A stretch of DNA of 11,760 nucleotides, from the UHGV virus genome UHGV-1590541; one strand, 5' to 3'. Source of the stretch: a virus. Below the pieces are notes generated by a model. The model was not told the origin of the DNA. It saw only the letters and a program-made list of their open reading frames with translations, and did no database searches. The position numbers and the translations under genes were made by a program. This document shows, piece after piece, positions 1 to 11,760 of this stretch (its first letter is position 1; every line of letters starts with the position of its first letter).

Positions 1-516
1 GATTCTAACTTATCTTTGGCAGTCATTTTTACTGTTGTAGCGGGCGCAGGTAAGTCTTGCTGCTGTGGATTTTCTGTTAGTTGTTTACGAGAAGAAACAT
101 CGCCCCTGTTAGTTTGCTTCATGTTGATTACAGATGCGTTATGGGCATTATCAGCAGCAATTGACTGAAGTTTTACAAAAGTTTTTGAATCTGTTTTAGC
201 CAGAAGTAACCTATTTCCCGTAAACATTGCCTTAAAAGTGATAGTTTTTTTCGTCTTGTCCGCCGCACCAAGCAAACCTCCAATGACCAACCCTGCACCA
301 CCAAAGATTAATCCACCAAGCAAACCTGCGCCTGCCGCCTTACCTATACGGCTTTCCTCTTCACTATCCGCAAGTTCAATCGATAAAAGCTCTTCTTTCA
401 GATTTAATACAATATTTTCAGGAAAGCCTTGTTTTGGTTTTTTGGCAACCGAACCCCATGCTTGCCCACCCTTTAGGAAAACTTCCTGCGATAACCTGAA
501 TCCCTGCCATGTTCAT
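1..516 (-). CDS. Glycine-zipper membrane protein, partial (runs off window start), apparently frameshifted at an A6 tract
   Basis: ATG at 516 with strong SD (AAGGTGA, 5-6 nt upstream) opens a 32-codon frame (MNMAGIQVIAGSFPKGWASMGFGCQKTKTRLS) that stops at 418-420. The +1 frame is open from 512 through position 1 and encodes a GxxxG-rich segment (IGKAAGAGLLGGLIFGGAGLVIGGLLGAA) with no plausible start of its own. The frames meet at the homopolymer at 438-443. The plus-strand ORF 238-531 is its antisense shadow. Confidence 0.45.
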
Positions 517-600
517 CACCTTTTACATTAAAATTTCAGAACGCAGCATGATGCCGCCTTTGTCTTTTTTCTGATCCCATGGTAATTCAGCTGTTATTTT

Positions 601-1587
601 CTATTTAAGAATAAAACGGTATTTACTGTCAGGAGTGCTTTGCTGATCAAGTAGCAGTGAACGACATGGAGCAGTCAAAACCCGAGCATAACTACCATCA
701 GGGCTTATGTTAATGTAACAAACCTTGCCCTTAACACTATAATTTTCGGGGACGGATGCCTTTGCTGATACAGTAAATTTAAGGGTATGCCAGCCCGTTT
801 TTTGCTTGTAGCTTGAAACCGAATGGAAATCATCTGAGTACTTATTTAACCCTGGAAACATGCTGCGCAGTGCGGGGATGGAATCTTCTATTATTTTATC
901 GTTGGTTTTAATGTTAAAAACGCTGGTTTCAGTAGAAGCTACTGCTTTGGCATTTCCCCATTTACCAGCGAACACAATCATTCCCACGAAAAATATTGCT
1001 ACAAGAACTAACACTCCCCCCAACACTACTACATGAGGCTTCCGGCTTCTGGTTGGTACAGTTGCGACTGATTTTGCACCGCTTTCCGATGGAGGTGATA
1101 GAGTTTTACTCTCATCACGAATATTCAGCAGATCATCAAAATAACCAAACACAGCCTGCAACTGCTCTTTGTCTAGGCCTTTAAGATGGGTTGTACCGAA
1201 ATGCTTCAGACAGTATCTGTCACGGTCAAGACGATACCCAGGGTCAGTAAGCGCCATTATTTTGCTGACCAGAAGATTACAGTCCTTCATATTCTGGATC
1301 TGTTGTGCATATCTCTGAAGGATCTCAACCGCACCATGATAATCAGCCGCAGTCATTTCATTAACTGTTTTGGTATTAAGTTTCGTGTGGATCGTCATCC
1401 ATAGCTCGCGCTTACTTTCCCCCAGATCAACCAATTCATCCATCAATCTGTGTAAATCGCGTTTTTGCAGCAACGAAATTGGTTGCTGGGCCGAAGGAAG
1501 TATGTCAGCAGAATAGTTATGAATGGTAACATCACCGCTGACAACGTTACCCACATCCCCGTTAACTGTTTGCTTCTCTTTACTCAT
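601..1587 (-). CDS. Single-pass membrane protein of unknown function (328 aa), co-transcribed with the prophage repressor
   Basis: ATG at 1587 overlaps the repressor stop (ATGA, 1584-1587). One predicted TM helix at about aa 185-207 (VVVLGGVLVLVAIFFVGMIVFAG) preceded by basic RSRKPH, implying N-in topology. The C-terminal domain of about 120 aa carries two Cys. No family recognised by eye. Lower GC than the phage core. Confidence 0.8.
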   Translation of the reverse strand: MSKEKQTVNGDVGNVVSGDVTIHNYSADILPSAQQPISLLQKRDLHRLMDELVDLGESKRELWMTIHTKLNTKTVNEMTAADYHGAVEILQRYAQQIQNMKDCNLLVSKIMALTDPGYRLDRDRYCLKHFGTTHLKGLDKEQLQAVFGYFDDLLNIRDESKTLSPPSESGAKSVATVPTRSRKPHVVVLGGVLVLVAIFFVGMIVFAGKWGNAKAVASTETSVFNIKTNDKIIEDSIPALRSMFPGLNKYSDDFHSVSSYKQKTGWHTLKFTVSAKASVPENYSVKGKVCYINISPDGSYARVLTAPCRSLLLDQQSTPDSKYRFILK

Positions 1588-2009
1588 CTTCTCTTGGTAT
1601 TTTTGTTCATTATTCCACCTGTTCCTATGGTTACGTTACCTTTGATAACATTCCCCAGAACATCTCCATGAATAACCTGTTCCGCCCGTTCTCTGGAGGA
1701 GCCAGTAGTCAAGGCCGACAAAACTGAACCTTTGACCTGTAATGGTGCCTGCCGGTAGTGCTGCAGTAACTCCATTTCATCACGTGATAAAGTTATACCT
1801 GATGACTCCCCGGTAAGAATGAACTGTACATTGGCCCCAATTCTTGCAAAGGCTGCAAGTAACTCACCTCCGGGAACAGCAACCCCTCGTTCATATTTCC
1901 CCCACATTTCTCTTGAAACGCCACAAAGGGCTGCTACTTCAGCCTGCTTGAGTGATAACCGCGAACGCTCAGCTTTGAACCGCGACGCGCAAAGAGAATC
2001 AAAATTCAC
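1584..2009 (-). CDS. Prophage repressor, XRE/cI-type helix-turn-helix (start probably GTG at 2009; longest ORF reaches ATG 2045)
   Basis: HTH segment LSLKQAEVAALCGVSREMWGKYERG, typical of XRE-family repressors. Divergent from the Ner-like gene. GTG at 2009 has a GAGG SD 5 nt upstream, whereas ATG 2045 has none and would leave only 50 bp for divergent promoters. C-terminal tail has a GDV/GNV repeat. Confidence 0.8.
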   Translation of the reverse strand: MNFDSLCASRFKAERSRLSLKQAEVAALCGVSREMWGKYERGVAVPGGELLAAFARIGANVQFILTGESSGITLSRDEMELLQHYRQAPLQVKGSVLSALTTGSSRERAEQVIHGDVLGNVIKGNVTIGTGGIMNKNTKRR

Positions 2010-2095
2010 ATAAACCTCATTGACAATGAGAACAATAGTTCTCATAATCTATCACATATAAAACAAACATCATTGCATCAACAAAGGAGACAACA
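2010..2095. promoter_or_regulatory. Divergent immunity control region: candidate operators plus rightward sigma70 early promoter
   Basis: Perfect palindrome CTCATTG-A-CAATGAG (2016-2030) overlapping a second dyad GAGAAC-AATA-GTTCTC (2028-2043). TTGACA (2020-2025), 17-bp spacer, CATAAT (2043-2048) facing the Ner-like gene. CACATAT motif at 2053-2059. Confidence 0.5.
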
Positions 2096-2284
2096 ATGAC
2101 TTCCGAACAAGTTAAAAATCTCTTCCGTCAGCGTGGTATCACGTTTACCCGCTGGGCCGAAGAACACGGCTACAGCCGCAATGAGGTCTATCGTGTTCTC
2201 AATGGACAGACCAAAGCTCGTTACGGCAAAGCCCATGAAATTGCCGTAAAACTGGGATTAAAACCCACGTCAAATGCGGCATAA
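2096..2284 (+). CDS. ner: Ner/Cro-like small DNA-binding regulator (62 aa)
   Basis: AGGAG RBS 6 nt upstream of ATG. Position is divergent from the repressor at the head of the early operon. Sequence RWAEEHGYSRNEVYRVLNGQ...AHEIAVKLGL looks like a small HTH protein. Assignment to Ner rather than another Cro-like family rests mainly on synteny. Confidence 0.7.
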   Translation: MTSEQVKNLFRQRGITFTRWAEEHGYSRNEVYRVLNGQTKARYGKAHEIAVKLGLKPTSNAA

Positions 2285-2336
2285 ATTTTCCACATATGCA
2301 ACAGGTTATCACATATTGCAAAAATGGAAATGTGAC
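2285..2336. promoter_or_regulatory. Repeated CACATAT(G/T)GCAA-like motifs between ner and the next gene (candidate Ner or HTH-protein binding sites)
   Basis: CACATATGCAA at 2291-2301 and CACATATTGCAA at 2310-2321, sharing the CACATAT core with 2053-2059 upstream of ner. Each contains short palindromes (CATATG, TTGCAA). Confidence 0.3.
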
Positions 2337-2645
2337 ATGAGTAAAGTAAATATTTCCAGTTCTGGGACCCGCATCCTACGTGTACTCAAAGCTCTACGCG
2401 GTCATGCTCTGAACGGTGTTTCTAACGGTGAACTGGCATCAGCCCTGGGGGAGTCCCCGGCGAATATCAATCGAGCACTTAATACCCTTATTGAAGAGGG
2501 ACTGGCCATGAAATTAGAGAACGGACGTTTCGCACCGGGAATCCAGTTACTACAGATCGCCATGGCTCACAGTCACGAGATGGCGCGTGCACAGGATCGT
2601 ATTAACGAAATCAACCAACGAGTTATTTCAGGTAGTCGTTTGTAA
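2337..2645 (+). CDS. Small winged-HTH protein, IclR-N-terminal-like (about 102 aa; longest ORF starts at 2274)
   Basis: RILRVLKALRGHALNGVSNGELASALGESPANINRALNTLIEEGL resembles the IclR-type HTH domain; no effector domain follows. The ATG at 2337 lies downstream of the repeat-containing spacer, whereas ATG 2274 overlaps the ner stop. Confidence 0.65.
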   Translation: MSKVNISSSGTRILRVLKALRGHALNGVSNGELASALGESPANINRALNTLIEEGLAMKLENGRFAPGIQLLQIAMAHSHEMARAQDRINEINQRVISGSRL

Positions 2646-2655
2646 GGAGTAATCA

Positions 2656-3570
2656 ATGGGACGCACCAAATCACCCGTTAACACTGAACTGAATGTTGAG
2701 GTTCCGCTGTCAGATAACATCAATGTCAATTTGAACGCTATGACACAGCATCGCATGGAAATTATGCAGCAGTTTGGTGATGGACTGCCTTATGAACGTG
2801 ATCGCATTGTTCACGAAGCACGTTTTTATATGGCGCAGAGTGCTGAATCTATGCTGGAAGCGGGTAAGCGGCTGATCATCTTAAAAGAAAATGAGCCACA
2901 CGGTGATTTTACAAACATTTTAGAAAATGAACTCGGACTTGCACCACAAGTTGCTCGCCGCATGATGCAAGCCAGTATGAAGTTTTTGGGAGAAGGTGAT
3001 GAGCCAACAAAACGCTCAACGTTGAGCGTTTTGGGGAAAGCCAAACTGTACGACCTGATGGTTCTGGATAATGAAGAACTTGATGAATTGGCCGACGGCG
3101 GCACAGTTGCCGGCCTGACGCTTGACGACGTTGATCGCATGTCAGTACGTGAATTGCGTCAGGCCCTGCGCGAAGCGCGCGAAACCAACGCAGCACAACA
3201 GCGCGTACTCGCCGACAAAAATGAAAAAATAGATTCACTCTCCACCAGACTGGAGAAGAAATCCCGTATTCAGCCGCCTGAGCCTGATGAGGAGGTTAAG
3301 AAGCTGCGGGCGGAAGTAACAGCATTAGCGGTTGAGGCGGAATCTGCTATCGCCGTCCGACTGTCCAGCGCTTTTGAGACGCTGTGCGCATATTGTGCTG
3401 AAAACATGATTGATACCCCCAGAGACTTCATGGCAGGCCTGGTCTGTCAACTGGAAAGCACAGCGCGTAGCCTGCGCTCCACATTTGACCTGCCGGACGA
3501 GCCAACAGGCAATGCAGCGCCTTCATGGCTGACTGAGCCGACGCCACAGATTAACGGGCTGGAGGCATAA
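2656..3570 (+). CDS. Hypothetical early protein (304 aa), acidic with predicted coiled-coil segments
   Basis: AAGGAG RBS. Stop at 3570 lies 3 nt before the transposase start. No domain recognised with confidence (possibly a DUF3102-like phage protein, from memory only). Confidence 0.8.
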   Translation: MGRTKSPVNTELNVEVPLSDNINVNLNAMTQHRMEIMQQFGDGLPYERDRIVHEARFYMAQSAESMLEAGKRLIILKENEPHGDFTNILENELGLAPQVARRMMQASMKFLGEGDEPTKRSTLSVLGKAKLYDLMVLDNEELDELADGGTVAGLTLDDVDRMSVRELRQALREARETNAAQQRVLADKNEKIDSLSTRLEKKSRIQPPEPDEEVKKLRAEVTALAVEAESAIAVRLSSAFETLCAYCAENMIDTPRDFMAGLVCQLESTARSLRSTFDLPDEPTGNAAPSWLTEPTPQINGLEA

Positions 3571-3573
3571 CCA

Positions 3574-5343
3574 ATGAATGCTGCCCTGACTGAACGACTG
3601 GTTTATGTCGCCCGCGCGGCACGTGACGCGGGGCATGGTAAACGCGGTGCAATATACGACGCTGCCTGTGCTGAACTTGGCATGTCCCGCGCCACTCTGC
3701 TGCGCAGGCTGAAGGAGGTCTCTGTGACTGATAAACGCAAAAAACGCGCCGATGCCGGGCGCAGCGCCCTGACCCGCGACGAAGCCGCGCTGATATCTGC
3801 CACACTGCGTGAGGCCACCCGCAAGAACGGTAAGCGTCTCTATTCCATCGCAGATGCAGTGGAAACCCTGCGGGCTAACGGCTTTATCACCGCAGGCAGA
3901 ACAGATGAAACCACCAGTGAGTTTTTCCCGTTGTCTGAAGATGCCATCAGCCGTGCTCTGCGTAACTATGGCCTGCCCCCGGAACAACTGGATGCCCCTG
4001 CACCACATACCGAAGTGGCCAGTCTGCATCCCAATCATGTCTGGCAGATTGACGCCTCACTCTGCACGCTTTACTACCTGAGCAATGGACATAAAGGGCT
4101 GCAGGTGATGGACAGCGCGAAGTTCTACAAGAACAAGCCCGCTAACCTTGCCCGTATCGCCAGTGACCGCGTGTGGAGTTACGAGATTACCGACCATGCC
4201 AGCGGCTGGATTTACGTTGAGTATGTGACGGGCGCGGAATCAGGTGAGAACCTGTGTTCTGTGCTTATCAACGCCATGCAGGAGCGTGGCGGCGCAGACG
4301 TGCTGCACGGCGTGCCGAAAATACTCTATCTCGACCCCGGCTCGGCAAACACCGCGGGTATGACGAAAAACATGTGCCGCTCACTGGGCATCGACCTGAT
4401 AGCGCACAAGCCGCATAACGCCCGCGCCACCGGACAGGTGGAAAAGGCGCGTGACATTATCGAACGCAAGCTGGAGCCGGGTCTGAAGTTCCGGCCGGTT
4501 CACGGTCTGGAAGAACTCAACGCGCTGGCCGCGAAATGGCGCAGCCACTTTAACGCCACGGCTGTTCACAGCCGCCACGGTAAAACCCGCACGGATATCT
4601 GGCTGAAGATTACTGCTGAGCAGCTGAAAAAAGCGCCTTCCGTTGAGGTATGTCGTGAACTGGCTGTGGCGGCACCAGAACTCCGCAAAGTCACGCCAAA
4701 ACTTCGTGTCTCGTTCCGGGGCACTGAATTTGACGTATCAACGGTACCGGGCGTACTGGTTGGTGAAAAACTGATGATTACCCGTAACCCATGGCGCAGC
4801 GATGTGGCACAGGTGGTTCTGACCGGTGAGGACGGCCACGAGACGTTCTTCCTGGTCGAAGAGGTCAGAAAGAACGAGTTTGGCTTTGCTGAAGGCGCGG
4901 CGGTATTTGGCGAAAGTTACAAAGCCCTGCCGGAAACCCCGGCACAGATGGCGGCAAAAGAAACCGAAGCGCTGGTTACCGGTACAGACAACGCCGCAGA
5001 TGCAGCCGCCGCACGCAAGGCGAAGGCGCTGCCGTTCGGCGGGCGGCTTGACCCGTATAAACATATCGACGACACCACACTTCCGGCCTATATGCCGAAG
5101 CGTGGTCAGGCCTCTGACGTACGCGGGCCGCGCACTGAACAACGTCCCATGACTCATGTGGAGGCCGCGAAAGCCCTGCGCGATAAGTTCAGCGCCGACG
5201 GCCTTACCTGGACGCCGGAACATTACCGCCAGTTAACGGCACAGTACCCGGACGGCGTACCGGAAGCCGCACTGGATGAAGTCATGGCCACGCTGACCAC
5301 ACCGGCCCGCAGCAGTGTTATCAGCATTGTTAACGGCAACTGA
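3574..5343 (+). CDS. DDE transposase (retroviral-integrase/rve-like catalytic core), functional analogue of Mu A (589 aa)
   Basis: GGAGG RBS. N-terminal HTH-like region, then candidate catalytic residues in HVWQIDASL, KILYLDPGSANTA and GQVEKARDIIERKLE, matching D..D..E spacing of rve-type transposases. Followed directly by an AAA+ ATPase, as in transposable phages. Confidence 0.9.
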   Translation: MNAALTERLVYVARAARDAGHGKRGAIYDAACAELGMSRATLLRRLKEVSVTDKRKKRADAGRSALTRDEAALISATLREATRKNGKRLYSIADAVETLRANGFITAGRTDETTSEFFPLSEDAISRALRNYGLPPEQLDAPAPHTEVASLHPNHVWQIDASLCTLYYLSNGHKGLQVMDSAKFYKNKPANLARIASDRVWSYEITDHASGWIYVEYVTGAESGENLCSVLINAMQERGGADVLHGVPKILYLDPGSANTAGMTKNMCRSLGIDLIAHKPHNARATGQVEKARDIIERKLEPGLKFRPVHGLEELNALAAKWRSHFNATAVHSRHGKTRTDIWLKITAEQLKKAPSVEVCRELAVAAPELRKVTPKLRVSFRGTEFDVSTVPGVLVGEKLMITRNPWRSDVAQVVLTGEDGHETFFLVEEVRKNEFGFAEGAAVFGESYKALPETPAQMAAKETEALVTGTDNAADAAAARKAKALPFGGRLDPYKHIDDTTLPAYMPKRGQASDVRGPRTEQRPMTHVEAAKALRDKFSADGLTWTPEHYRQLTAQYPDGVPEAALDEVMATLTTPARSSVISIVNGN

Positions 5344-5353
5344 GGAGGGAAAC

Positions 5354-6520
5354 ATGCTGGTACTGAAGCAGCAACTGAAAGAGGCCCGTATTCCACAGGC
5401 GGTGGTGGCGAGAGCTGTCGATGTTTCTGAGGCCACGCTGGCCCAGATTGTGAATCATAACGCGTGGCCCCGCACCAGCCCCGGAGAAGTGCGCCGGCGT
5501 CTTGCGTCCTGGCTGGAAAGTCAGGGGATTGATACAACGAAGAGTTTTGATGCTGTACAGGGCGCGGCCACGCCCCGTACAGCGGGTACCACAGATAAAA
5601 CGAGCCTCAGTGAGGAAGAGAATATGTTACTCAAAAAACAGGTGTTATTTCCAGCAACCAAAAAAGCGTTTGGTCTTTTCCGTGACCCGTTCGCCGACGA
5701 AGCCATGCAGGGTTCTGATGATGTGTTCACCACCCCGGACATTCGCTACGTGCGTGAGGCGCTGTACCAGACAGCCCGTCATGGTGGGTTTATGGCCGTC
5801 ATCGGTGAGTCCGGTGCGGGTAAATCCACGCTGCGCCGCGACCTGACTGAACGTATCAACCGCGAGAATGCGCCGGTAATTGTTATCGAGCCATACATCA
5901 TCGCTATGGAAGACAACGATGTGAAAGGGAAAACCCTGAAGGCAGCAGCTATTGCCGAAGCCATTATCAGTACCATCGCACCACTGGAAAGCATCAGACG
6001 CAGTCAGGACGCCCGTTTTCGCCAGTTGCATCGCGTCCTGAAAGACAGCAGCCAGGCGGGGTTCAGCCACGTTCTGGTGATTGAGGAGGCCCACAGTCTG
6101 CCCATTCCGACACTGAAACACCTCAAACGCTTTTTTGAGCTGGAGTCCGGTTTCAAAAAACTGCTGTCCATCGTGCTGATTGGCCAGCCGGAACTGGCGA
6201 CAAAACTGTCTGAACGCAATATGGAAGTCCGTGAAGTCGTTCAGCGCTGTGAGGTGGTCGAACTTCTGCCTCTGGACAATAACCTTGAAGAATTTCTGAC
6301 GTTCAAACTGCAACGGGCCGGTAAACAGCTGACGGACATTATGGACGCCGGTGCAGTGGATGCCATACGTGCCCGCCTGAGCAATCCGGGAAGTCACCGT
6401 AAAAATATGGTCAGCCTGCTGTATCCGCTGGCCGTCAGTAACCTGGTAATAGCCGCCATGAATCTGGCCGCTGAAATCGGGGTTCCACAGGTCAACGCTG
6501 ACGTTGTCAAAGGGGTTTAA
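5354..6520 (+). CDS. AAA+ ATPase transposition helper protein (MuB / TniB-like), N-terminal HTH (longest ORF starts at 5315)
   Basis: Walker A GESGAGKST and Walker B-like VLVIEEAH. GAGGAGGG RBS immediately upstream of ATG 5354, 11 nt after the transposase stop. Confidence 0.9.
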   Translation: MLVLKQQLKEARIPQAVVARAVDVSEATLAQIVNHNAWPRTSPGEVRRRLASWLESQGIDTTKSFDAVQGAATPRTAGTTDKTSLSEEENMLLKKQVLFPATKKAFGLFRDPFADEAMQGSDDVFTTPDIRYVREALYQTARHGGFMAVIGESGAGKSTLRRDLTERINRENAPVIVIEPYIIAMEDNDVKGKTLKAAAIAEAIISTIAPLESIRRSQDARFRQLHRVLKDSSQAGFSHVLVIEEAHSLPIPTLKHLKRFFELESGFKKLLSIVLIGQPELATKLSERNMEVREVVQRCEVVELLPLDNNLEEFLTFKLQRAGKQLTDIMDAGAVDAIRARLSNPGSHRKNMVSLLYPLAVSNLVIAAMNLAAEIGVPQVNADVVKGV

Positions 6521-6522
6521 TA

Positions 6523-6792
6523 ATGAAATCCACCACAGGTATCAACCAGCAAATCAGCAAAGTGCAGTCAGCCATTATGGCGCTTAAGGCGACGAACACG
6601 GATGTACAAAGCATCACCATCAGGGGTAACAAACCTGTCATCCGCGTTTCCCGGAGTGCGCATTGCATGCGCATGCTTGAGCAGGGAAAGGCCTGTTATC
6701 TGTATACCGGACATGACCACAGGGGATATTTCCGTCAGGGCGTTTTCGAACTGCACGGCTGTCGCGTCGTGTGGCCGGAATCTTTGTGGTAA
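6523..6792 (+). CDS. Hypothetical small early protein (89 aa)
   Basis: ATG 2 nt after the B stop, preceded by AAGGGG. No recognisable domain. Confidence 0.65.
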   Translation: MKSTTGINQQISKVQSAIMALKATNTDVQSITIRGNKPVIRVSRSAHCMRMLEQGKACYLYTGHDHRGYFRQGVFELHGCRVVWPESLW

Positions 6793-6819
6793 TCAGCACA
6801 ACTGGAGAAATCATAAAAA

Positions 6820-7350
6820 ATGGCAAAAAGTACAAAAGGTGCAAAACGTATCAAGGCCGCAGCAGCACTCTGGGTGCCGGGGACACGTGAAGAGGTCATT
6901 GAGGGAATCAGACTACTCGGTGACGCACAACGTGAACTGGTCAGGGCTGAAACAGAAATGAATGACGCCATTGGCGATATCACCGCACGTTATGCCCCGC
7001 TCACCGAGAGCCTGAAAAAACGCATGGCCGAACTGCAGTCCGGTATTCAGACATGGTGTGAGGCACACCGTGATGAACTGACCGGCAACGGGAAGGTGAA
7101 GTTCGCTAACCTCACCACCGGCGAGGTGCAGTGGCGAAACCGTCCGCCATCAGTCAGTATCCGTGGGGCGGATAATGTTATTGAATTACTGAGACGTCTG
7201 GGGCTTGAGCGCTTTATTCGTGTAAAAGAGGAAATAAATAAAGACGCTATCCTGAATGAAAAAGAGGCCGTGAAAAATATTCCCGGTATTTCCATTAAAA
7301 GCGACATTGAGGATTTTTCAATAATTCCTTTTGAGCAGGATGTGCAGTAA
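6820..7350 (+). CDS. gam: Host-nuclease inhibitor protein Gam (Mu Gam family, Ku-like DNA-end-binding)
   Basis: 176 aa. Long collinear matches to Mu Gam as I remember it: MAK..KRIK.AAA..VP at the N-terminus, ETEMNDAI, WCEA.RDELT, RPPSVSIRG, LERLGL.RFIR.K.EINKEAIL and a C-terminal IEDFSIIPFEQ. Confidence 0.95.
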   Translation: MAKSTKGAKRIKAAAALWVPGTREEVIEGIRLLGDAQRELVRAETEMNDAIGDITARYAPLTESLKKRMAELQSGIQTWCEAHRDELTGNGKVKFANLTTGEVQWRNRPPSVSIRGADNVIELLRRLGLERFIRVKEEINKDAILNEKEAVKNIPGISIKSDIEDFSIIPFEQDVQ

Positions 7351-7447
7351 ACACACCACGTTAATTATTTAATAAAAACATTTTCTTTTTTATTCCGACG
7401 TCAGCGCCGCGGGCTTCTGCACGCCGGAAACAGAGGAGAATTAAATC

Positions 7448-7642
7448 ATGATATTTAAATGTATTCAGTGCGAGAGGGATATAACAGCCCTGCGTTTTCA
7501 CAGCGCCATCGCCGTGATGTCCGGTAAATACCACATCCCTGCGGTACGCGTCACCCTGGTCTGCCCGTACTGCAGCCAGCATTTTTCGGCAGACGTGCCC
7601 GTCATGGAATTCTCCCGCCCTGACAGGGAGGACTCGCAATGA
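7448..7642 (+). CDS. Small zinc-ribbon protein (64 aa, CxxC...CxxC)
   Basis: Cys pairs at C5/C8 and C39/C42. Its stop overlaps the next gene start (ATGA at 7639-7642). Preceded by a 97-bp AT-rich spacer after gam. Confidence 0.65.
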   Translation: MIFKCIQCERDITALRFHSAIAVMSGKYHIPAVRVTLVCPYCSQHFSADVPVMEFSRPDREDSQ

Positions 7643-7911
7643 TTACCCCACAGGAAGCACGACAGCGCACCCGAACCCTTGTTGAACACTATGTCAACGA
7701 GTGTGAATGCCGCGACCTCACCGATGTGAAGCACGTCCTGACGGCGCTAATCAGCATGACCGCTCAAGCCATTGTGGCGACCAACGGAAAGGCGGCTGCC
7801 CTGCAGGTACTGGTGAACACACTAACCCACACGGCAGCGCATGAGGTGCCGTACCGGATGGAAACCACTGCAGAAGGCGGCCTGCACATCACCGTCAGCC
7901 GGAAGCACTGA
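7639..7911 (+). CDS. Hypothetical small early protein (90 aa)
   Basis: Translationally coupled to the upstream gene (ATGA overlap). No recognisable domain. Confidence 0.6.
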   Translation: MITPQEARQRTRTLVEHYVNECECRDLTDVKHVLTALISMTAQAIVATNGKAAALQVLVNTLTHTAAHEVPYRMETTAEGGLHITVSRKH

Positions 7912-7920
7912 GGGCGCGGC

Positions 7921-8217
7921 ATGACACGGAACACCATACTCACCCGCACCGCCCTCTACCGTCTGGCCCTGCAGCGTTTCGGGCCGGACGCACAGGCCCT
8001 GAAACTGACAGAAGAGGCCGCTGAACTGGCGGCCAGTGCTGCCCGCAATCTGAACGGACAGGGCAGCGAAAGCGACCTCGCGGCAGAGCTGGCAGACGTG
8101 GAAATCATGACAGAGCAATTGCGCCTTCAGGGGATGGACCGGCTGATTGACTTCCACAAACAGAAAAAACTGGAACGTCTGGCTGCACGACTGGGCGTGA
8201 TTTACACGAACGAGTAA
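7921..8217 (+). CDS. MazG-like all-alpha nucleoside triphosphate pyrophosphohydrolase domain protein (98 aa), tentative
   Basis: GAGGG RBS. Contains EExxE (LTEEAAELA) followed about 30 residues later by ExxD (AELADVEIM), the metal-binding signature of MazG-like NTP-PPases. Confidence 0.55.
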   Translation: MTRNTILTRTALYRLALQRFGPDAQALKLTEEAAELAASAARNLNGQGSESDLAAELADVEIMTEQLRLQGMDRLIDFHKQKKLERLAARLGVIYTNE

Positions 8218-8231
8218 CCGGGAGGCATTCA

Positions 8232-8447
8232 ATGGCTGACATACTCAGGGAAATCACCGCATGGATACTGATTCTTACTGGCCTGGCGACATGCCTCAGT
8301 GCGGGGGCAGCCCTGGCTGCCCTGCTGATGCACATAACAACACAGTGGTTATGGGAAAAGCTTAAAGCAGCATACAGCCTGAAAGAGCTGTCCGACGCTG
8401 TCCGGGCATGGAAACGGCAGAAAAATACCGGAGATACAGAACAATGA
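8232..8447 (+). CDS. Small membrane protein (71 aa, one TM helix)
   Basis: GGGAGG RBS. Hydrophobic stretch ITAWILILTGLATCLSAGAALAALLM. Stop overlaps the next start (ATGA at 8444-8447). Confidence 0.6.
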   Translation: MADILREITAWILILTGLATCLSAGAALAALLMHITTQWLWEKLKAAYSLKELSDAVRAWKRQKNTGDTEQ

Positions 8448-9127
8448 CAGACCAGAATAAACACATTGAGAAACTGAAAAAGTTGCTGGCGCTGGCCGCA
8501 TCCGGCAACCCGCACGAGGCCGCTCTGGCACTGCGCCGAGCCCGTAAACTGATGGATGTTCACGGCATCACACATTCCGACATTGCTATGAGTGATATTG
8601 ATGAAACCATCAGTCACTACTGGCCGACAGGCAGTCTCCGTCCACCGCGCTACATGCTGGGCCTGATGAACATCATCCGCGAGGTATTTGGTGTTAACTC
8701 CATCATTCACCCCGGCACGCATCCGTCTGTGGGGTTCTACGGCAACCGGGAACGTGCGGCACTGGCTGCATACACCTGGGAAGTGCTGGCCCGTCAGCTG
8801 AAAAAGGCGCGTCAGCAGTATATCAGTGCACAGAACAAAAGAATAAAAACCGCCACCCGCACCAGCCGTGGAGACCAGTTTGCCGAAGGCTGGGTGCTGG
8901 CCGTTATCAGTGAAATACAGTCCTTTGCCCTGACCGATGATGAGCGTGAACTGATGCAGCAGTGGCTGGAACATAAATACCCGCAGACGCAAACCACCAG
9001 GGCGCGTAAACCGGGAAGAAGCCGCAATGGCGACGCCTCGCGCTATGCGGGGTTTCGTGAAGGGCAGAACGTCAGACTGCACCGCCCGGTCAGTGGGCAG
9101 GAACAACAGAAACTGGAGGCCAGATGA
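8444..9127 (+). CDS. DUF2786-like phage protein (227 aa; longest ORF starts at 8408)
   Basis: N-terminal KHIEKLKKLLALAASGNPHEAALALRRARKLM matches the DUF2786 signature as I remember it. ATG 8444 is coupled to the upstream stop. Confidence 0.7.
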   Translation: MTDQNKHIEKLKKLLALAASGNPHEAALALRRARKLMDVHGITHSDIAMSDIDETISHYWPTGSLRPPRYMLGLMNIIREVFGVNSIIHPGTHPSVGFYGNRERAALAAYTWEVLARQLKKARQQYISAQNKRIKTATRTSRGDQFAEGWVLAVISEIQSFALTDDERELMQQWLEHKYPQTQTTRARKPGRSRNGDASRYAGFREGQNVRLHRPVSGQEQQKLEAR

Positions 9128-9354
9128 TTACGCTATCAGGTAAAAGCCGGAAATTAAAAGCCTGCCGAATATCTGCCAGATACCTTTTTGCCCGCGCCTT
9201 TTTTAAGAACGTCAGGCCGGGGATCACAATTGGTGTTATTGCCGGACGCGAACAGGTTGAAAAATACATGTCAGGTGCATGGTGGAATAACGACCCTGTC
9301 ATTGCTGCCCGTAATATTCATATCGAATGGGGAGGTATTCAGAATGACTACTGA
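9124..9354 (+). CDS. Hypothetical small early protein (76 aa)
   Basis: ATG overlaps the upstream stop (ATGA at 9124-9127). No recognisable domain. Confidence 0.5.
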   Translation: MITLSGKSRKLKACRISARYLFARAFFKNVRPGITIGVIAGREQVEKYMSGAWWNNDPVIAARNIHIEWGGIQNDY

Positions 9355-9550
9355 AACCATTGTCTGTTTTCTTTTCTGGTATATGTACGCAGGATCATGC
9401 AGCGCAAGACTTCATCGTTCCCTGGGCTATGGCAGGCACTACGACACCGCGCATTACATCCTGTACATGACCGCCGTCATGTTGTTCTGGCCAGTCACCC
9501 TGCCAGCTGCAACCGACATTGTTGCCGACAGACTGAAAAAAAGGAGATGA
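9344..9550 (+). CDS. Small hydrophobic/membrane protein (68 aa); internal start of the longer ORF 9188-9550
   Basis: GGGGAGG RBS 7 nt upstream of ATG 9344. Two hydrophobic segments (TIVCFLFWYMYAG and ILYMTAVMLFWPVTLPAA). Stop lies 1 nt before the gemA-like start. Confidence 0.5.
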   Translation: MTTETIVCFLFWYMYAGSCSARLHRSLGYGRHYDTAHYILYMTAVMLFWPVTLPAATDIVADRLKKRR

Positions 9551-9551
9551 T

Positions 9552-10001
9552 ATGCAGAAAAAACGCCTGATACAGCTTATCCATATTGCCCGTAATGAAC
9601 TGGGTATGGATGAAGACACCTACCGCCAGATGTTACAGGGGCTGACCGGTAAAGCCTCAACCAAAGGAATGGATACCACACAACTAAACTGCGTGCTGGA
9701 ATCCATGAAAAAGAAAGGCTTTCGCGTTAAACCAGCCAGAAAAGCCAGCTCCGGTTTACCGCTGGATAACCATCCGCAGTCCAGGAAAATTCGTGCGCTA
9801 TGGCTTGAAATGGCTGCTGCCGGCATTGTTCGTGACCGTTCAGAAAATGCATTAGCGAGGTGGATCAAGCGGGAAACGGGCATCAGCGCCCTGCGCTGGC
9901 TCAGTACTGAACAGGCAAGCAGTGTTATTGAGAAACTGAAGAAGTGGCAGCGCAGAGCTGCGGGAGTCAAACATGAGCGACCTGAATCAGTTTCGAAGTA
10001 A
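9552..10001 (+). CDS. gemA: GemA-like regulatory protein (Mu gp16 family, DUF1018)
   Basis: AGGAG RBS. LIQLIHIARNELGMDEDTYRQML..LTGKAS and RKIRALWLEMAAAGIV resemble the Mu gp16/GemA family. Sits immediately upstream of and overlapping mor, as in Mu. Confidence 0.8.
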   Translation: MQKKRLIQLIHIARNELGMDEDTYRQMLQGLTGKASTKGMDTTQLNCVLESMKKKGFRVKPARKASSGLPLDNHPQSRKIRALWLEMAAAGIVRDRSENALARWIKRETGISALRWLSTEQASSVIEKLKKWQRRAAGVKHERPESVSK

Positions 10002-10362
10002 GGGGCCGGAACTCCTGGTGGAACTGGCACAGCATACCTCTGAGACCGTTCGCGAGATTATTGATATTGAGCCCGAAGTTGCCGACCAGATTGGTCAGGC
10101 CGTCGCGAACCGAATGATGCAGGTCTGGGGCGGGCAAAACGTTTATTTCCCGATGGGCATGGTATGGAAGGTCAGTCAGCGCGACCGGGAAATCTTCAGG
10201 GAGTTTAACGGACGCAACCACCACGAACTGGCCCGCAAATTTGGTGTTTCGCTTCAGTGGGTCTACAGCGTGGTTAAGCGGGTAAGAAAAGAAGAACTGG
10301 ATCGGATGCAGGGCAAGCTATTTGCTGATGAACCCGATGCAGATACGGAGAAAAAAGAGTAA
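9973..10362 (+). CDS. mor: Mor-family transcription activator (middle operon regulator)
   Basis: 129 aa, same length as Mu Mor. C-terminal half (VWGGQNVYFPMG...FREFNGRNHHELARKFGVSLQWVYSVVKRVRK) aligns closely with the Mu Mor HTH region as I remember it. Confidence 0.9.
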   Translation: MSDLNQFRSKGPELLVELAQHTSETVREIIDIEPEVADQIGQAVANRMMQVWGGQNVYFPMGMVWKVSQRDREIFREFNGRNHHELARKFGVSLQWVYSVVKRVRKEELDRMQGKLFADEPDADTEKKE

Positions 10363-10391
10363 TATCTGCAATCAGGCTGGCGCGAGTTCTG

Positions 10392-10448
<57 letters not shown>

Positions 10449-10449
10449 A

Positions 10450-10525
<76 letters not shown>

Positions 10526-10776
10526 CCAAGTCCCCGTGTCAAAAAGTCATCTGTGTAAGATTCCAATCATACATATGGACTCAGATTGGCCTGTGTCCGT
10601 GCTTCCTAAAGGAATTCACAGATTCAGTCCTAATCATGATGACACATTAGCGAAGCTATGCCATGTCAGATACAGGTTCACTTAGTCGCGGTCTTACCAG
10701 TCTGGCCTTTAATACTCGTTAATCCTTAGCAATCAGTAGGTTGGTTTTATTTTTCAACAGACAGAAGTAGTTTCAT

Positions 10777-11760
10777 TTACATATATGCAGCTCCCATCAC
10801 TTCTTCTGGTGAAATCTCTTTATCGTTGGTTAGCAATACCCAGAGCACTCTGGCATTTTTGTTGTTCAGCGCTACGGTGGCAACATTTTTATTCCGCCGC
10901 GAGACTGGTCTGCCCAGCCAGCTTTCCTGGACCTGTCTGCCCTTTCTGGCGTTTGACACTGTCTTCGCACCATGGAACAGTAGCGTTCTGATATAGACAT
11001 CGTCCCGTTTACTGATAGACCCCAGCGTGTTTTTACCTACGCTGAAGCACTGTCGGGGAACCAGTCCAAGCCATGCAGCAAGCTGACGCCGGTTTTTGAA
11101 GCCGATACTACCCGGTGCTGACAATTGCAGTGGTGGTAAGAATAGCAATCCCCGAAATGGTGGCAATTTTCCTGCACAGTTCGTCGTTCCCGACGTGTTC
11201 GTTGCTAACGGCTTCTATGGTTTCAATGTGTACGCTCAGTTGTTTCACATTTTCATTAGAGATAGGACGACAGCTGTCTGAACGGCATTGTTAAACAGTT
11301 TTCCGCGTCTTCAAGCAGGGCAGGGACATGACGACTGATCGCTACAGTGTCGGGCGGGAGAACGATGCCAAATTCAGCCAGTAATCCTCTGATCTGGTTT
11401 ATCTGCGCAGTCCTTGATTTAACAAACCCCGTCAGGGCACGATGAAAAGACAGTAATGACTACTGCTCAGGCGTCTTGATGCTGACAAACCGCATATTAG
11501 GTCGGGTAACGGCTTCACAGATGGCCTCGGCAGCAGCCATATCATTCTTGTTTGTTTTCACATATGGCTTTACAAATCGCGGGCATTAGTCTGACATTAT
11601 GCCCCTAAGTAGACAGCATTCTCACTAATGACGCGCTCCGGCGCAGACCTCCATCCCAATCCGACAGGAAGACATATTCGCGAAGAATACGGGCATCAGG
11701 GAACGTTTAATCCGTTTTCTGAGCTTAGATTTTTCTGTTCCTACCCAGACCGTGGATTTG
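10777..11760 (-). pseudogene. IS110-family (DEDD) transposase, decayed: multiple in-frame stops and frameshifts; N-terminus beyond window end
   Basis: Minus-strand translation gives segments in three frames that read collinearly like an IS110-family transposase: FFANMSSCRIGMEVCAGARH, PYVKTNKNDMAAAEAICEAVTRPNMRFVSIKTPEQ, IRGLLAEFGIV, ISGIAILTTTAIV, RRQLAAWLGLVPRQ...ISKRDDVYIRTLLFHGAKTV, VATVALNNKNARVLW. In-frame stops at 11622-11627 (TAG TGA), 11586-11588 (TAA) and 11460-11462 (TAG); frame changes near 11256 and near 11110-11125. Confidence 0.8.

What the first reader, a model, noticed from the sequence alone, without database searches (positions are those of the whole stretch)
10777..11760. 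Heavily decayed IS110-family transposase beside the prophage
The transposase reading frame is recognisable over its whole visible length but carries at least four nonsense codons and two frameshifts. Several stops sit where I would expect Gln or Trp codons in intact relatives (CAG/CAA to TAG/TAA, TGG to TAG), i.e. single transitions; this rests on my remembered family consensus. This is an old relic, not an active element. IS110-family recombinases are guided by a structured non-coding RNA encoded in a flanking end, so any surviving RNA gene would lie outside the visible coding remnant, either in 10363-10776 or beyond the window.
Basis: partly seen in the sequence, partly recalled or inferred. 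Interest (0 to 1): 0.4.

Follow-up and report, generated by a model that had tools for sequence, protein, structure and literature searches.

The report
Dead IS1111-type element with guide-RNA fossil
This is an old, inactivated insertion sequence of the RNA-guided IS110/IS1111 kind, already annotated as a pseudogene in many E. coli genomes; next to the broken gene lies a decayed copy of its guide RNA that still spells out the site it inserted into.

Summary
The finding is real but ordinary. Window 10777-11760 (minus strand) is the pseudogene of a 344-codon IS110-family transposase. RefSeq already annotates it as "IS110 family transposase, frameshifted; internal stop", and K-12 yoeD is its 5' stub. 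It lies in the CP4-44-type island of E. coli.

Against the closest intact relative (83% nt) there are five frameshifting indels and two certain CAG->TAG stops, with a third, TGG->TAG, depending on the alignment. Catalytic D92 is now Ala and the SG motif is now SV.

The element belongs to the IS1111 subgroup, so its guide RNA lies 3' of the gene. A covariance model built from 49 intact relatives hits 10555-10711 (-) at 87.7 bits (E 3e-24). Intact elements score 126-162 bits.

Its top-strand guide (10663-10672) is complementary to 10 contiguous bases of the element's own insertion site. That site is the start codon of a DUF4942 gene, seen uninterrupted in paralogous islands. The bottom-strand guide and three helices have decayed.

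The right end is missing from the window. IS100 split it in other strains, and here a Mu-like prophage (right end at 10524) sits at that same junction. Bases 10363-10524 are prophage, not IS.

The parts
10777..11760 (-). Transposase pseudogene of an IS1111-group (IS110-family) element, from about codon 16 to the stop codon (TAA at 10777-10779). The start codon would lie at 11803-11805, outside the window.
   Evidence: RefSeq pseudogene in L001 and L109. 75% aa identity to intact P0001 and 83.4% nt to L009. Pfam PF02371 and PF01548. Lesion list.
11736..11736 (-). +1 insertion (frameshift 1).
   Evidence: against L009 and L004.
11626..11627 (-). 1-nt deletion between these bases (frameshift 2). 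Adjacent codon 60 may read TGG->TAG, depending on the alignment.
11605..11607 (-). Nonsense codon 67, CAG (Gln) -> TAG.
11582..11583 (-). 2-nt deletion between these bases (frameshift 3).
11532..11534 (-). Codon 92, GAT->GCT. This is the fourth acidic residue of the DEDD motif (the DxxD of KNDMAD), replaced by Ala.
   Evidence: Alignments. D92 is invariant in 11 intact relatives.
11460..11462 (-). Nonsense codon 116, CAG (Gln) -> TAG.
11257..11257 (-). +1 insertion (frameshift 4).
11112..11113 (-). 5-nt deletion between these bases (frameshift 5).
11038..11040 (-). Codon 258, GGA->GTA. The SG of the GL-P----SG motif becomes SV.
   Evidence: The motif and its requirement in Piv are from PMC11187229.
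10526..10776 (-). 3' non-coding region of the IS, cut at its 3' end. The last ~25 nt of the element are absent from the window, including half of the -35-like TTGGCA and the right subterminal repeat.
   Evidence: Aligns to L009 1109-1357 and L004. The missing end is seen across IS100 in L001 4020-4047 and contiguous in IS100-free strains L109 and L114-116.
10555..10711 (-). Decayed seekRNA / bridge-RNA gene. It gives a full-length match to a covariance model built from 49 intact relatives without the relic.
   Evidence: 87.7 bits, E 3e-24, model positions 1-154. Intact elements score 126-162 bits. The model's structure has 28 pairs, 16 with compensatory changes, 98.7% paired, 0/500 shuffles.
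10706..10711 (-). 5' strand of closing helix P1 (UAAAGG). It pairs with 10607-10612 (CCUUUA) and is intact in the relic.
10680..10689 (-). 5' strand of helix P2 (GCGACUAAGU). Its partner is 10617-10628 (ACUGAAUCUGUG). Two of the pairs are broken in the relic.
   Evidence: cmsearch marks two non-standard pairs. Intact relatives have GACUCAGU/ACUGAGUC.
10663..10672 (-). Top-strand target guide (UAUCUGACAU). Its reverse complement ATGTCAGATA equals the element's own right junction and the uninterrupted paralogous site.
   Evidence: Intact close relatives have UAUUUAACAU and insert at ATG|TTAAAT.
10636..10643 (-). Bottom-strand target guide (GUCAUCAU). It only partly matches the left half of the site (..CCGATAAT): 4 of the last 5 bases.
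10587..10601 (-). Variable hairpin that shows compensatory changes among relatives. Two of its five pairs are broken in the relic (CGGAC/GGCCA).
   Evidence: Alignments.
10568..10574 (-). 7-mer AUGUAUG, identical to the element's right terminal extension. This is the presumed donor-recognition segment.
   Evidence: The 7-mer equals the right-end extension in 49 of 52 elements, across 5 sequence variants.
10526..10530 (+). CCAAG. In other strains this is the 5-bp target duplication of IS100, which split the relic's right end.
   Evidence: L001 4043-4047 and 6002-6006 flank IS100. IS100-free strains read TTTGCCAAGTCCCC.
10525..10525 (+). Single A between the prophage end and CCAAG. It is best read as the terminal base of IS100 (..GTGACA), because IS100-free strains have G here.
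   Evidence: This is an inference from one base.
10363..10524 (+). Right end of the Mu-like transposable prophage (ends ..AATCA). It is not part of the IS.
   Evidence: The same end abuts unrelated genes in many genomes. Mu-type genes lie upstream.

Best explanation
The region is the fossil of an IS1111-group insertion sequence, a member of the IS110 family of RNA-guided DEDD recombinases.

In intact relatives the element is about 1.38 kb. It consists of a 9-10-nt left extension, a 9-12-bp subterminal inverted repeat, a ~60-nt leader, a 344-codon transposase gene, a ~255-270-nt 3' non-coding region, the right subterminal repeat and a 7-nt right extension.

The 3' region encodes a structured RNA. 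A first module is closed by two co-varying helices. It presents one guide complementary to the top strand to the right of the insertion point. After a small hairpin it presents a second guide identical to the top strand to the left of that point. A second module carries a 7-mer identical to the element's right terminal extension.

Shown here: both guides co-vary with each element's own flanks across about 50 independent elements, and the 7-mer co-varies with the right end.

Inferred from published work on ISEc11, ISKpn4, ISPa11 and IS621: the RNA binds the transposase and bridges the circularised element and the target, so that the element inserts without duplication at a site specified by the RNA.

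The ancestor of this copy inserted at the start codon of a DUF4942 gene in a CP4-44-type island, at ..CCGATA-AT-GTCAGATA... It then died. The gene acquired five frameshifts, two or three stop codons, and the D92A and SG->SV substitutions. The RNA lost pairs in three helices and part of one guide.

Later IS100 split the right end. In this genome a Mu-like prophage transposed into the IS100/relic junction. The copy in the window cannot move: it has no enzyme, no right end and no junction promoter.
For: IDENTITY
- Identity and annotation.
- DNA colinearity with intact L009 and L004 over leader, gene and 3' region.

IS1111-GROUP FEATURES
- The subterminal repeats co-vary left against right (GGTCGCCCC/GGGGCGACC versus GGACGCCCC/GGGGCGTCC and others).
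- The literature definition of the group (STIRs, long right end, RNA in the right end, 330-350 aa, GL-P----SG).

RNA
- Covariation.
- Model hit in the window at 87.7 bits against 126-162 bits for intact elements.

GUIDES
- Matches to own flank against other elements' flanks are 4.9 vs 2.0 of 8 (top-strand guide) and 5.3 vs 2.3 of 8 (bottom-strand guide). None of 20000 permutations reached either value.
- The positions are conserved at about -152 and -127 nt from the right repeat.
- The relic's top-strand guide differs from its closest relatives at exactly the two positions where its flank differs (TCAGAT vs TTAAAT).

INSERTION SITE AND LATER HISTORY
- The site is seen uninterrupted in paralogous islands of 819 genomes.
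- Decay: (lesions; codon-position differences 36/41/84 against 25/10/118 between two intact elements).
- IS100 and Mu-like junctions.
Against: - The bottom-strand guide matches the relic's left flank in only 3 of 8 positions, or 4 of the last 5. The reading 'the RNA remembers its target' therefore rests mainly on one guide.
- No RNA, transcription or protein-RNA binding was measured. The mechanism is transferred from other IS1111 and IS110 elements.
- The exact ends and the core (a 2-nt AT shared at both junctions) are deduced from a paralogous site that is 83-86% identical, not from the true ancestral empty site.
- I could not query ISfinder, so the element may already carry a name.
- The Pfam N-terminal domain scores 24.1 bits on the stitched relic, below its 29-bit cut-off.
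Confidence: 0.9

Rival explanations
1. The relic is of the IS110 subgroup proper (like IS621). Its bridge RNA would lie 5' of the gene, beyond the window, and 10526-10776 would be ordinary flank.
For: RefSeq calls it only 'IS110 family (RNA-guided) transposase'.
Against: - The 5' leader is only ~73 nt, and the 3' region is ~250-270 nt and highly conserved.
- Subterminal inverted repeats are present.
- A covariance model of the 3' RNA hits 10555-10711 at E 3e-24.
- The guides in that region match the flanks.
Confidence: 0.02
2. The apparent frameshifts and stops are assembly or sequencing errors, and the gene is intact in vivo.
For: One of the frameshifts lies in a run of A, and another in a run of G in the reference (11736, 11626/11627).
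Against: - The 1235-nt segment aligns without any gap to five independent complete genomes (L001, L109, L114-116) at 98.5-99.9% identity. All five indels and both stops are therefore shared.
- RefSeq flags the same defects.
Confidence: 0.01
3. The guide-RNA remnant has been kept for a host or trans function. It might be a small RNA, or it might still be usable by a related intact transposase.
For: - The RNA module is complete in length and still recognisable.
- One guide is perfect, and matching empty sites exist in 819 genomes.
- The literature reports some tolerance between seekRNAs and diverged transposases.
Against: - Polymorphism among six strains is no lower in the RNA (2 sites in 157 nt) than in the dead gene (18 in 984).
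- The model score is 40-48 bits below that of close intact relatives, with broken pairs in three helices.
- Most E. coli genomes that keep any trace of the relic have deleted this part (the K-12-type yoeD stub).
- No intact close relative was found in complete E. coli genomes.
- In this window the RNA has lost its downstream end, and published work places the only known promoter at the circle junction.
Confidence: 0.04

Closest known systems
IS1111-family elements with a 3' seekRNA: ISEc11, ISKpn4/ISPst6, ISPa11 (Siddiquee et al. 2024, PMC11187229)
   Same: - Subterminal inverted repeats, a short left end and a long 3' non-coding region.
- A transposase of 330-350 aa with DEDD and GL-P----SG motifs.
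- Insertion without duplication at an RNA-specified site.
- The top-strand match lies 5' of the bottom-strand match in the RNA, and the two matches overlap at the insertion point.
- -35-like and -10-like hexamers sit at the two ends.
   Different: - A different clade. The transposase is about 50% identical to the common Klebsiella/Salmonella plasmid IS110-family element; identity to ISEc11 itself was not measured.
- A different target (ATGTCAGATA for the relic, ATGTTAAAT for its closest relatives).
- This copy is dead and truncated.
- No experimental data exist for this clade.
IS621 / IS110-group bridge RNA (Durrant et al. 2024, PMC11208160; Hiraizumi et al. 2024, PMC11208158)
   Same: - An RNA-guided DEDD recombinase.
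- An RNA with a target-recognising module and a donor-recognising segment.
- A short core shared by donor and target (here AT at both junctions).
   Different: - In IS621 the RNA is 5' of the gene and the subterminal repeats are only 2-3 bp.
- The protein clade is different.
- Here the donor side is supported only by one co-varying 7-mer. A left-end guide could not be established.
E. coli K-12 yoeD (b4642) and the RefSeq 'IS110 family transposase' pseudogenes of CP4-44-type islands
   Same: The same insertion at the same locus. yoeD is the 5' stub of this very relic (L002). L001, L003, L109 and L114-116 carry the near-complete relic at 98.5-99.9% identity.
   Different: The annotations cover only the coding remnant. 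The records examined annotate neither the RNA, the ends nor the target. In this window a Mu-like prophage replaces the IS100 or right-end neighbour seen elsewhere.

Membership tests
IS110 family (DEDD transposases) | C-terminal Transposase_20 domain (PF02371) | tested here: met
   51.9 bits against a cut-off of 21.3 on the stitched translation.
IS110 family (DEDD transposases) | N-terminal DEDD_Tnp_IS110 domain (PF01548) | tested here: inconclusive
   The stitched relic scores 24.1 bits, below the 29-bit cut-off. All close intact relatives (66-75% identity over the full length) carry it.
IS110 family (DEDD transposases) | Intact catalytic D-E-D-D residues (needed for an active member) | tested here: not met
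   D9, E52 and D89 are kept. D92 is replaced by Ala (GAT->GCT, 11532-11534). The assignment of these four residues as the tetrad is by analogy with IS621 and rests on my own knowledge.
IS1111 group | Subterminal inverted repeats of 7-17 bp | tested here: met
   Both repeats lie outside the window. The left one is GGACGCCCC, just beyond the window (L001 7336-7344, read on the minus strand; L109). The right one is GGGGCGACC, GGAGCGACC or GGGGCAACC in L114, L109 and L001. Relatives show perfect, co-varying pairs.
IS1111 group | The longer non-coding region lies downstream of tnp, with a short left end | tested here: met
   The leader is ~73 nt and the 3' region ~270 nt in L009. The relic is colinear with it.
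IS1111 group | Transposase of 330-350 aa with a GL-P----S(T)G motif | tested here: met
   344 codons are reconstructed. The motif is present as GLVPRQCFSV, with the final G mutated to V. Intact relatives read GLVPRQYSSG.
IS1111 group | Site-specific insertion without target duplication | tested here: met
   Joining the relic's flanks reproduces the paralogous empty site. Only 2 nt (AT) are shared by both junctions. Six Providencia sites share the consensus CATTA|T..ATG|TTAAAT.
seekRNA / bridge RNA | A conserved structured RNA encoded in the non-coding end | tested here: met
   28 pairs, 16 with compensatory changes, 0/500 shuffles, slid controls 28-45% paired. The window hit is 87.7 bits.
seekRNA / bridge RNA | [quoted passage not shown] | tested here: met
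   Family-wide: 0 of 20000 permutations reached the observed value for either guide. Relic: the top-strand guide matches 10 contiguous nt; the bottom-strand guide matches only 3 of 8, or 4 of the last 5.
seekRNA / bridge RNA | The RNA is transcribed, binds the transposase and is required for circle formation and targeting | not testable with these tools
   Shown only for ISEc11, ISKpn4, ISPa11, ISPst6 and ISEc21 (PMC11187229) and for IS621.
Rfam families | Match to a curated RNA family | tested here: not met
   No meaningful hit for the window 10000-11760 or for intact L004 at E<=1-10. This RNA clade is not in Rfam 15.

The most novel reading that the evidence does not exclude
The decayed guide RNA at 10555-10711 is not inert. 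It would be transcribed by read-through and could still pair with the start-codon region of DUF4942 genes (ATGTCAGAYA) in paralogous CP4-type islands. There it could act as an antisense-like small RNA, or as a usable guide for a related incoming IS1111-type transposase.
Probability: 0.04. Interest if true: 0.6.

Novelty: new member of a known kind. Interest (0 to 1): 0.27.

Why it matters
For genome annotation, it shows that an 'IS110 family pseudogene' can be resolved into a full element: ends, guide RNA, target and later disruptions.

It also shows that a guide RNA can outlive its enzyme as a readable record of where the element was aimed. The model built here could be used to annotate the 3' RNA of a large proteobacterial IS1111 clade that Rfam 15 does not cover.

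It adds computational support to the published seekRNA/bridge-RNA model. About 50 independent elements have guides that co-vary with their flanks.

Biologically, this copy is dead and has no expected function.

Tried and rejected
- Rfam scans of the window flank and of an intact relative found only chance-level hits.
- I first placed the left end at ATAATGG and treated the terminal ATG of the right end as purely IS sequence. The empty-site comparison shows that 2 nt (AT) are shared by both junctions. The ATG is the DUF4942 start codon.
- I considered that the relic's left flank was not original, which would have explained the poor bottom-strand guide match. I rejected this because left and right flanks are contiguous in paralogous islands.
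- I looked for the uninterrupted target in an intact EutP/PduV gene. Only the last ~183 bp of that gene adjoin the locus, so it is not the target.
- Exact-pattern scans for an empty site in metagenome and viral contigs found nothing.
- A left-end guide (AUUCC/AUCCC against GGAAT/GGGAT) correlates only imperfectly and overlaps helix P1. I do not claim it.
- A weak model hit at window 1271-1327 (6.6 bits, E 0.66) is noise.
- There is no evidence that the RNA is more conserved than the dead gene among strains.
- ISfinder could not be queried.

Full report
WHAT IS THERE

Window 10525-11760 is 99.9% identical to a segment of the CP4-44-type island of E. coli, between tmaR/yeeA and the cbtA/cbeA toxin-antitoxin genes. 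RefSeq annotates it there as 'IS110 family transposase; frameshifted; internal stop' on the minus strand. In window coordinates that is 10777 to 11805.

About 690 of 5426 complete E. coli genomes hold most of this relic. Roughly 3400 more keep only a 55-nt overlap with the window's end. That stub is the K-12 pseudogene yoeD (b4642).

The stitched translation hits intact 344-aa IS110-family proteins at E 1.6e-151. The best are P0001 (75% identity, from a public sequencing-run assembly), a Salmonella protein (71%), Photorhabdus (68%) and Providencia (67%). Pfam finds PF02371 above its threshold and PF01548 just below.

LESIONS

The relic DNA is colinear with the intact element L009 over 1353 nt at 83.4% identity, covering leader, gene and 3' non-coding region. 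In the reference frame there are five indels, all frameshifting:
- +1 at 11736
- -1 at 11627/11626
- -2 at 11583/11582
- +1 at 11257
- -5 at 11113/11112

There are two unambiguous nonsense codons, both CAG->TAG (11605-11607 and 11460-11462). A third, TGG->TAG at codon 60, depends on where the neighbouring 1-nt deletion is placed.

One true stop was missed for the same reason.

Other damage:
- D92, the last D of the DxxD part of the DEDD motif and invariant in relatives, is Ala.
- The SG of GL-P----SG, a motif described in PMC11187229, is SV.
- Differences from L009 by codon position are 36/41/84. Between two intact elements they are 25/10/118. This indicates relaxed constraint.
- The same indels occur in five other complete genomes, with no gaps at 98.5-99.9% identity. 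They are old and real.

SUBGROUP AND ENDS

Intact relatives have a ~73-nt leader and a ~270-nt 3' region. They carry subterminal inverted repeats that co-vary between left and right ends, such as GGTCGCCCC/GGGGCGACC, GGACGCCCC/GGGGCGTCC and GGACGCTCC/GGAGCGTCC. Together with the 344-aa length, these are the defining features of the IS1111 group (PMC11187229; PMC11208160).

The relic's left repeat lies just beyond the window. Its right repeat is not in the window at all. In many strains IS100 has inserted into the relic's right end with a 5-bp duplication, CCAAG, and the remainder (CAAACAGGGGCAACCATGTATG) lies on the far side of IS100. In IS100-free strains such as E. coli HS the right end is contiguous.

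THE GUIDE RNA

I collected 3' regions from about 50 independent elements (56-93% aa identity to P0001) from genome contigs and assemblies. They share a conserved scaffold of ~155 nt that ends ~60 nt before the right repeat.

RNAalifold on 49 intact sequences predicts 28 pairs, of which 16 show compensatory changes. Counting gives 98.7% of cells paired, none of 500 shuffles reaching the observed values, and only 28-45% paired when the partners are slid.

A covariance model built without the relic finds one strong match in the window: 10555-10711 (-), 87.7 bits, E 3e-24, full length. Intact elements score 126-162 bits, including 15 that were not in the training set. The relic's RNA gene is therefore complete in extent but degraded. 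cmsearch flags broken pairs in two helices, and the alignment shows two broken pairs in the variable hairpin. Rfam 15 has no family for this RNA.

GUIDES AND TARGET

Across elements, the reverse complement of the right junction is found ~152 nt before the right repeat. The left junction is found in the same sense ~127 nt before it. Matches to an element's own flank against other elements' flanks are:
- top-strand guide: 4.9 vs 2.0 of 8
- bottom-strand guide: 5.3 vs 2.3 of 8

None of 20000 permutations reached either observed value. This is the arrangement published for IS1111 seekRNAs, with the top-strand match 5' of the bottom-strand match and the two overlapping in the target.

A 7-mer further 3' is identical to each element's right terminal extension in 49 of 52 cases, across five variants. 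I read this as donor recognition, which is an inference.

In the relic the top-strand guide is UAUCUGACAU (10663-10672). Its closest relatives have UAUUUAACAU and insert at ATG|TTAAAT. The relic's own right junction is ATG|TCAGAT, so guide and flank differ at the same two positions.

Joining the relic's two flanks and searching E. coli genomes finds the site uninterrupted in paralogous islands of 819 genomes at 82-87% identity. The sequence there is ..GGAAAACCGATAATGTCAGA(C/T)ATCAC.., which spans the start codon of a DUF4942 gene following a DUF957 gene.

The comparison shows a simple insertion with 2 nt (AT) common to both junctions. It also shows 10 contiguous bases of complementarity between the relic's top-strand guide and the site.

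The bottom-strand guide (GUCAUCAU, 10636-10643) matches ..CCGATAAT in only 4 of the last 5 positions. I attribute this to decay but cannot prove it.

THE NEIGHBOUR

Window 1-10524 is a Mu-like transposable prophage. It carries an rve-type transposase, an AAA+ protein, Gam, GemA and Mor, with lysis and late genes further left in other genomes. Its right end (..AATCA, 10524) abuts unrelated genes in many genomes.

Base 10525 is A. IS100-bearing strains have the terminal A of IS100 at that position and IS100-free strains have G. The prophage therefore probably inserted exactly at the IS100/relic junction, with a predicted 5-bp duplication ACCAA. This rests on one base and on the commonness of IS100 at this spot. 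No complete E. coli genome in the collection has this junction.

IS IT STILL DOING ANYTHING?

Polymorphism among six strains is 2 sites in 157 nt for the RNA and 18 in 984 nt for the dead gene. That gives no sign of selection on the RNA. No intact close relative exists in complete E. coli genomes. Published work places the only promoter of such elements at the circle junction, and half of the -35-like TTGGCA is missing here. I conclude the copy is inert.

VERDICT

It is an annotated pseudogene of a known family. The added value is threefold: corrected lesion counts, assignment to the IS1111 group, and location of a decayed but readable guide RNA inside the window whose surviving guide identifies the original insertion site.

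Noticed in passing
window 10520-10530: The Mu-like prophage's right end (..AATCA, 10524) sits one base from the point where IS100 ends in other strains. The intervening A fits the IS100 terminal base. The predicted 5-bp duplication ACCAA fits the Mu target consensus N-Y-(G/C)-R-N, which I recall from memory. If so, one mobile element inserted exactly at the tip of another, which itself lies inside a third.
   Followed up: partly
window 1-10524: The prophage has its early operon reading towards the right end: HTH proteins, a DUF3102 protein, an rve transposase (3574-5343), an AAA+ protein (5315-6520), Gam, a DUF2786/DUF7168 protein, GemA and Mor (9973-10362). Lysis genes lie further left in other genomes. 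Mor is therefore the last gene before the end, unlike the layout of phage Mu as I remember it. The 328-aa ORF at 601-1587 (-) has no Pfam match.
   Followed up: partly
L109 2873-3238 (E. coli HS), outside the window: The ORF that RefSeq names 'EutP/PduV family microcompartment system protein' beside the relic is a chimera. Its first ~60 codons are the 5' part of the DUF4942 gene, and its ATG is the insertion-site core. Only its last ~60 codons come from a eutP-like gene.
   Followed up: partly
L110, L111 (E. coli contigs), outside the window: Some E. coli carry an intact microcompartment gene cluster next to tmaR: an Fe-alcohol dehydrogenase, an RnfC-like protein, two BMC shell proteins and PduV/EutP. 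In strains with the CP4-44-type island only the last ~183 bp of the eutP-like gene remain. The island, or a deletion linked to it, replaced the cluster.
   Followed up: no
L013-L089, upstream of the RNA model: Distant relatives have a further conserved hairpin (GATTGC..GCAATC) just 5' of the modelled RNA. The close enterobacterial group lacks it in that form. It was left out of the model.
   Followed up: no
L018, L028, L040, L046, L047, L049, L053, L074 and others: Many betaproteobacterial members share the same target, GTAAG/GTATG|C..CG|TCCGGC(C/G)A, with near-identical guides. This suggests a repeated (REP-like) target, as is known for ISPa11.
   Followed up: no
L003 5460-7762 and L114-L115 flanks, outside the window: The locus is an insertion hot spot. 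Besides IS100, different strains carry ISEc12, IS30, IS2 or IS4-family fragments immediately beside or inside the relic.
   Followed up: no
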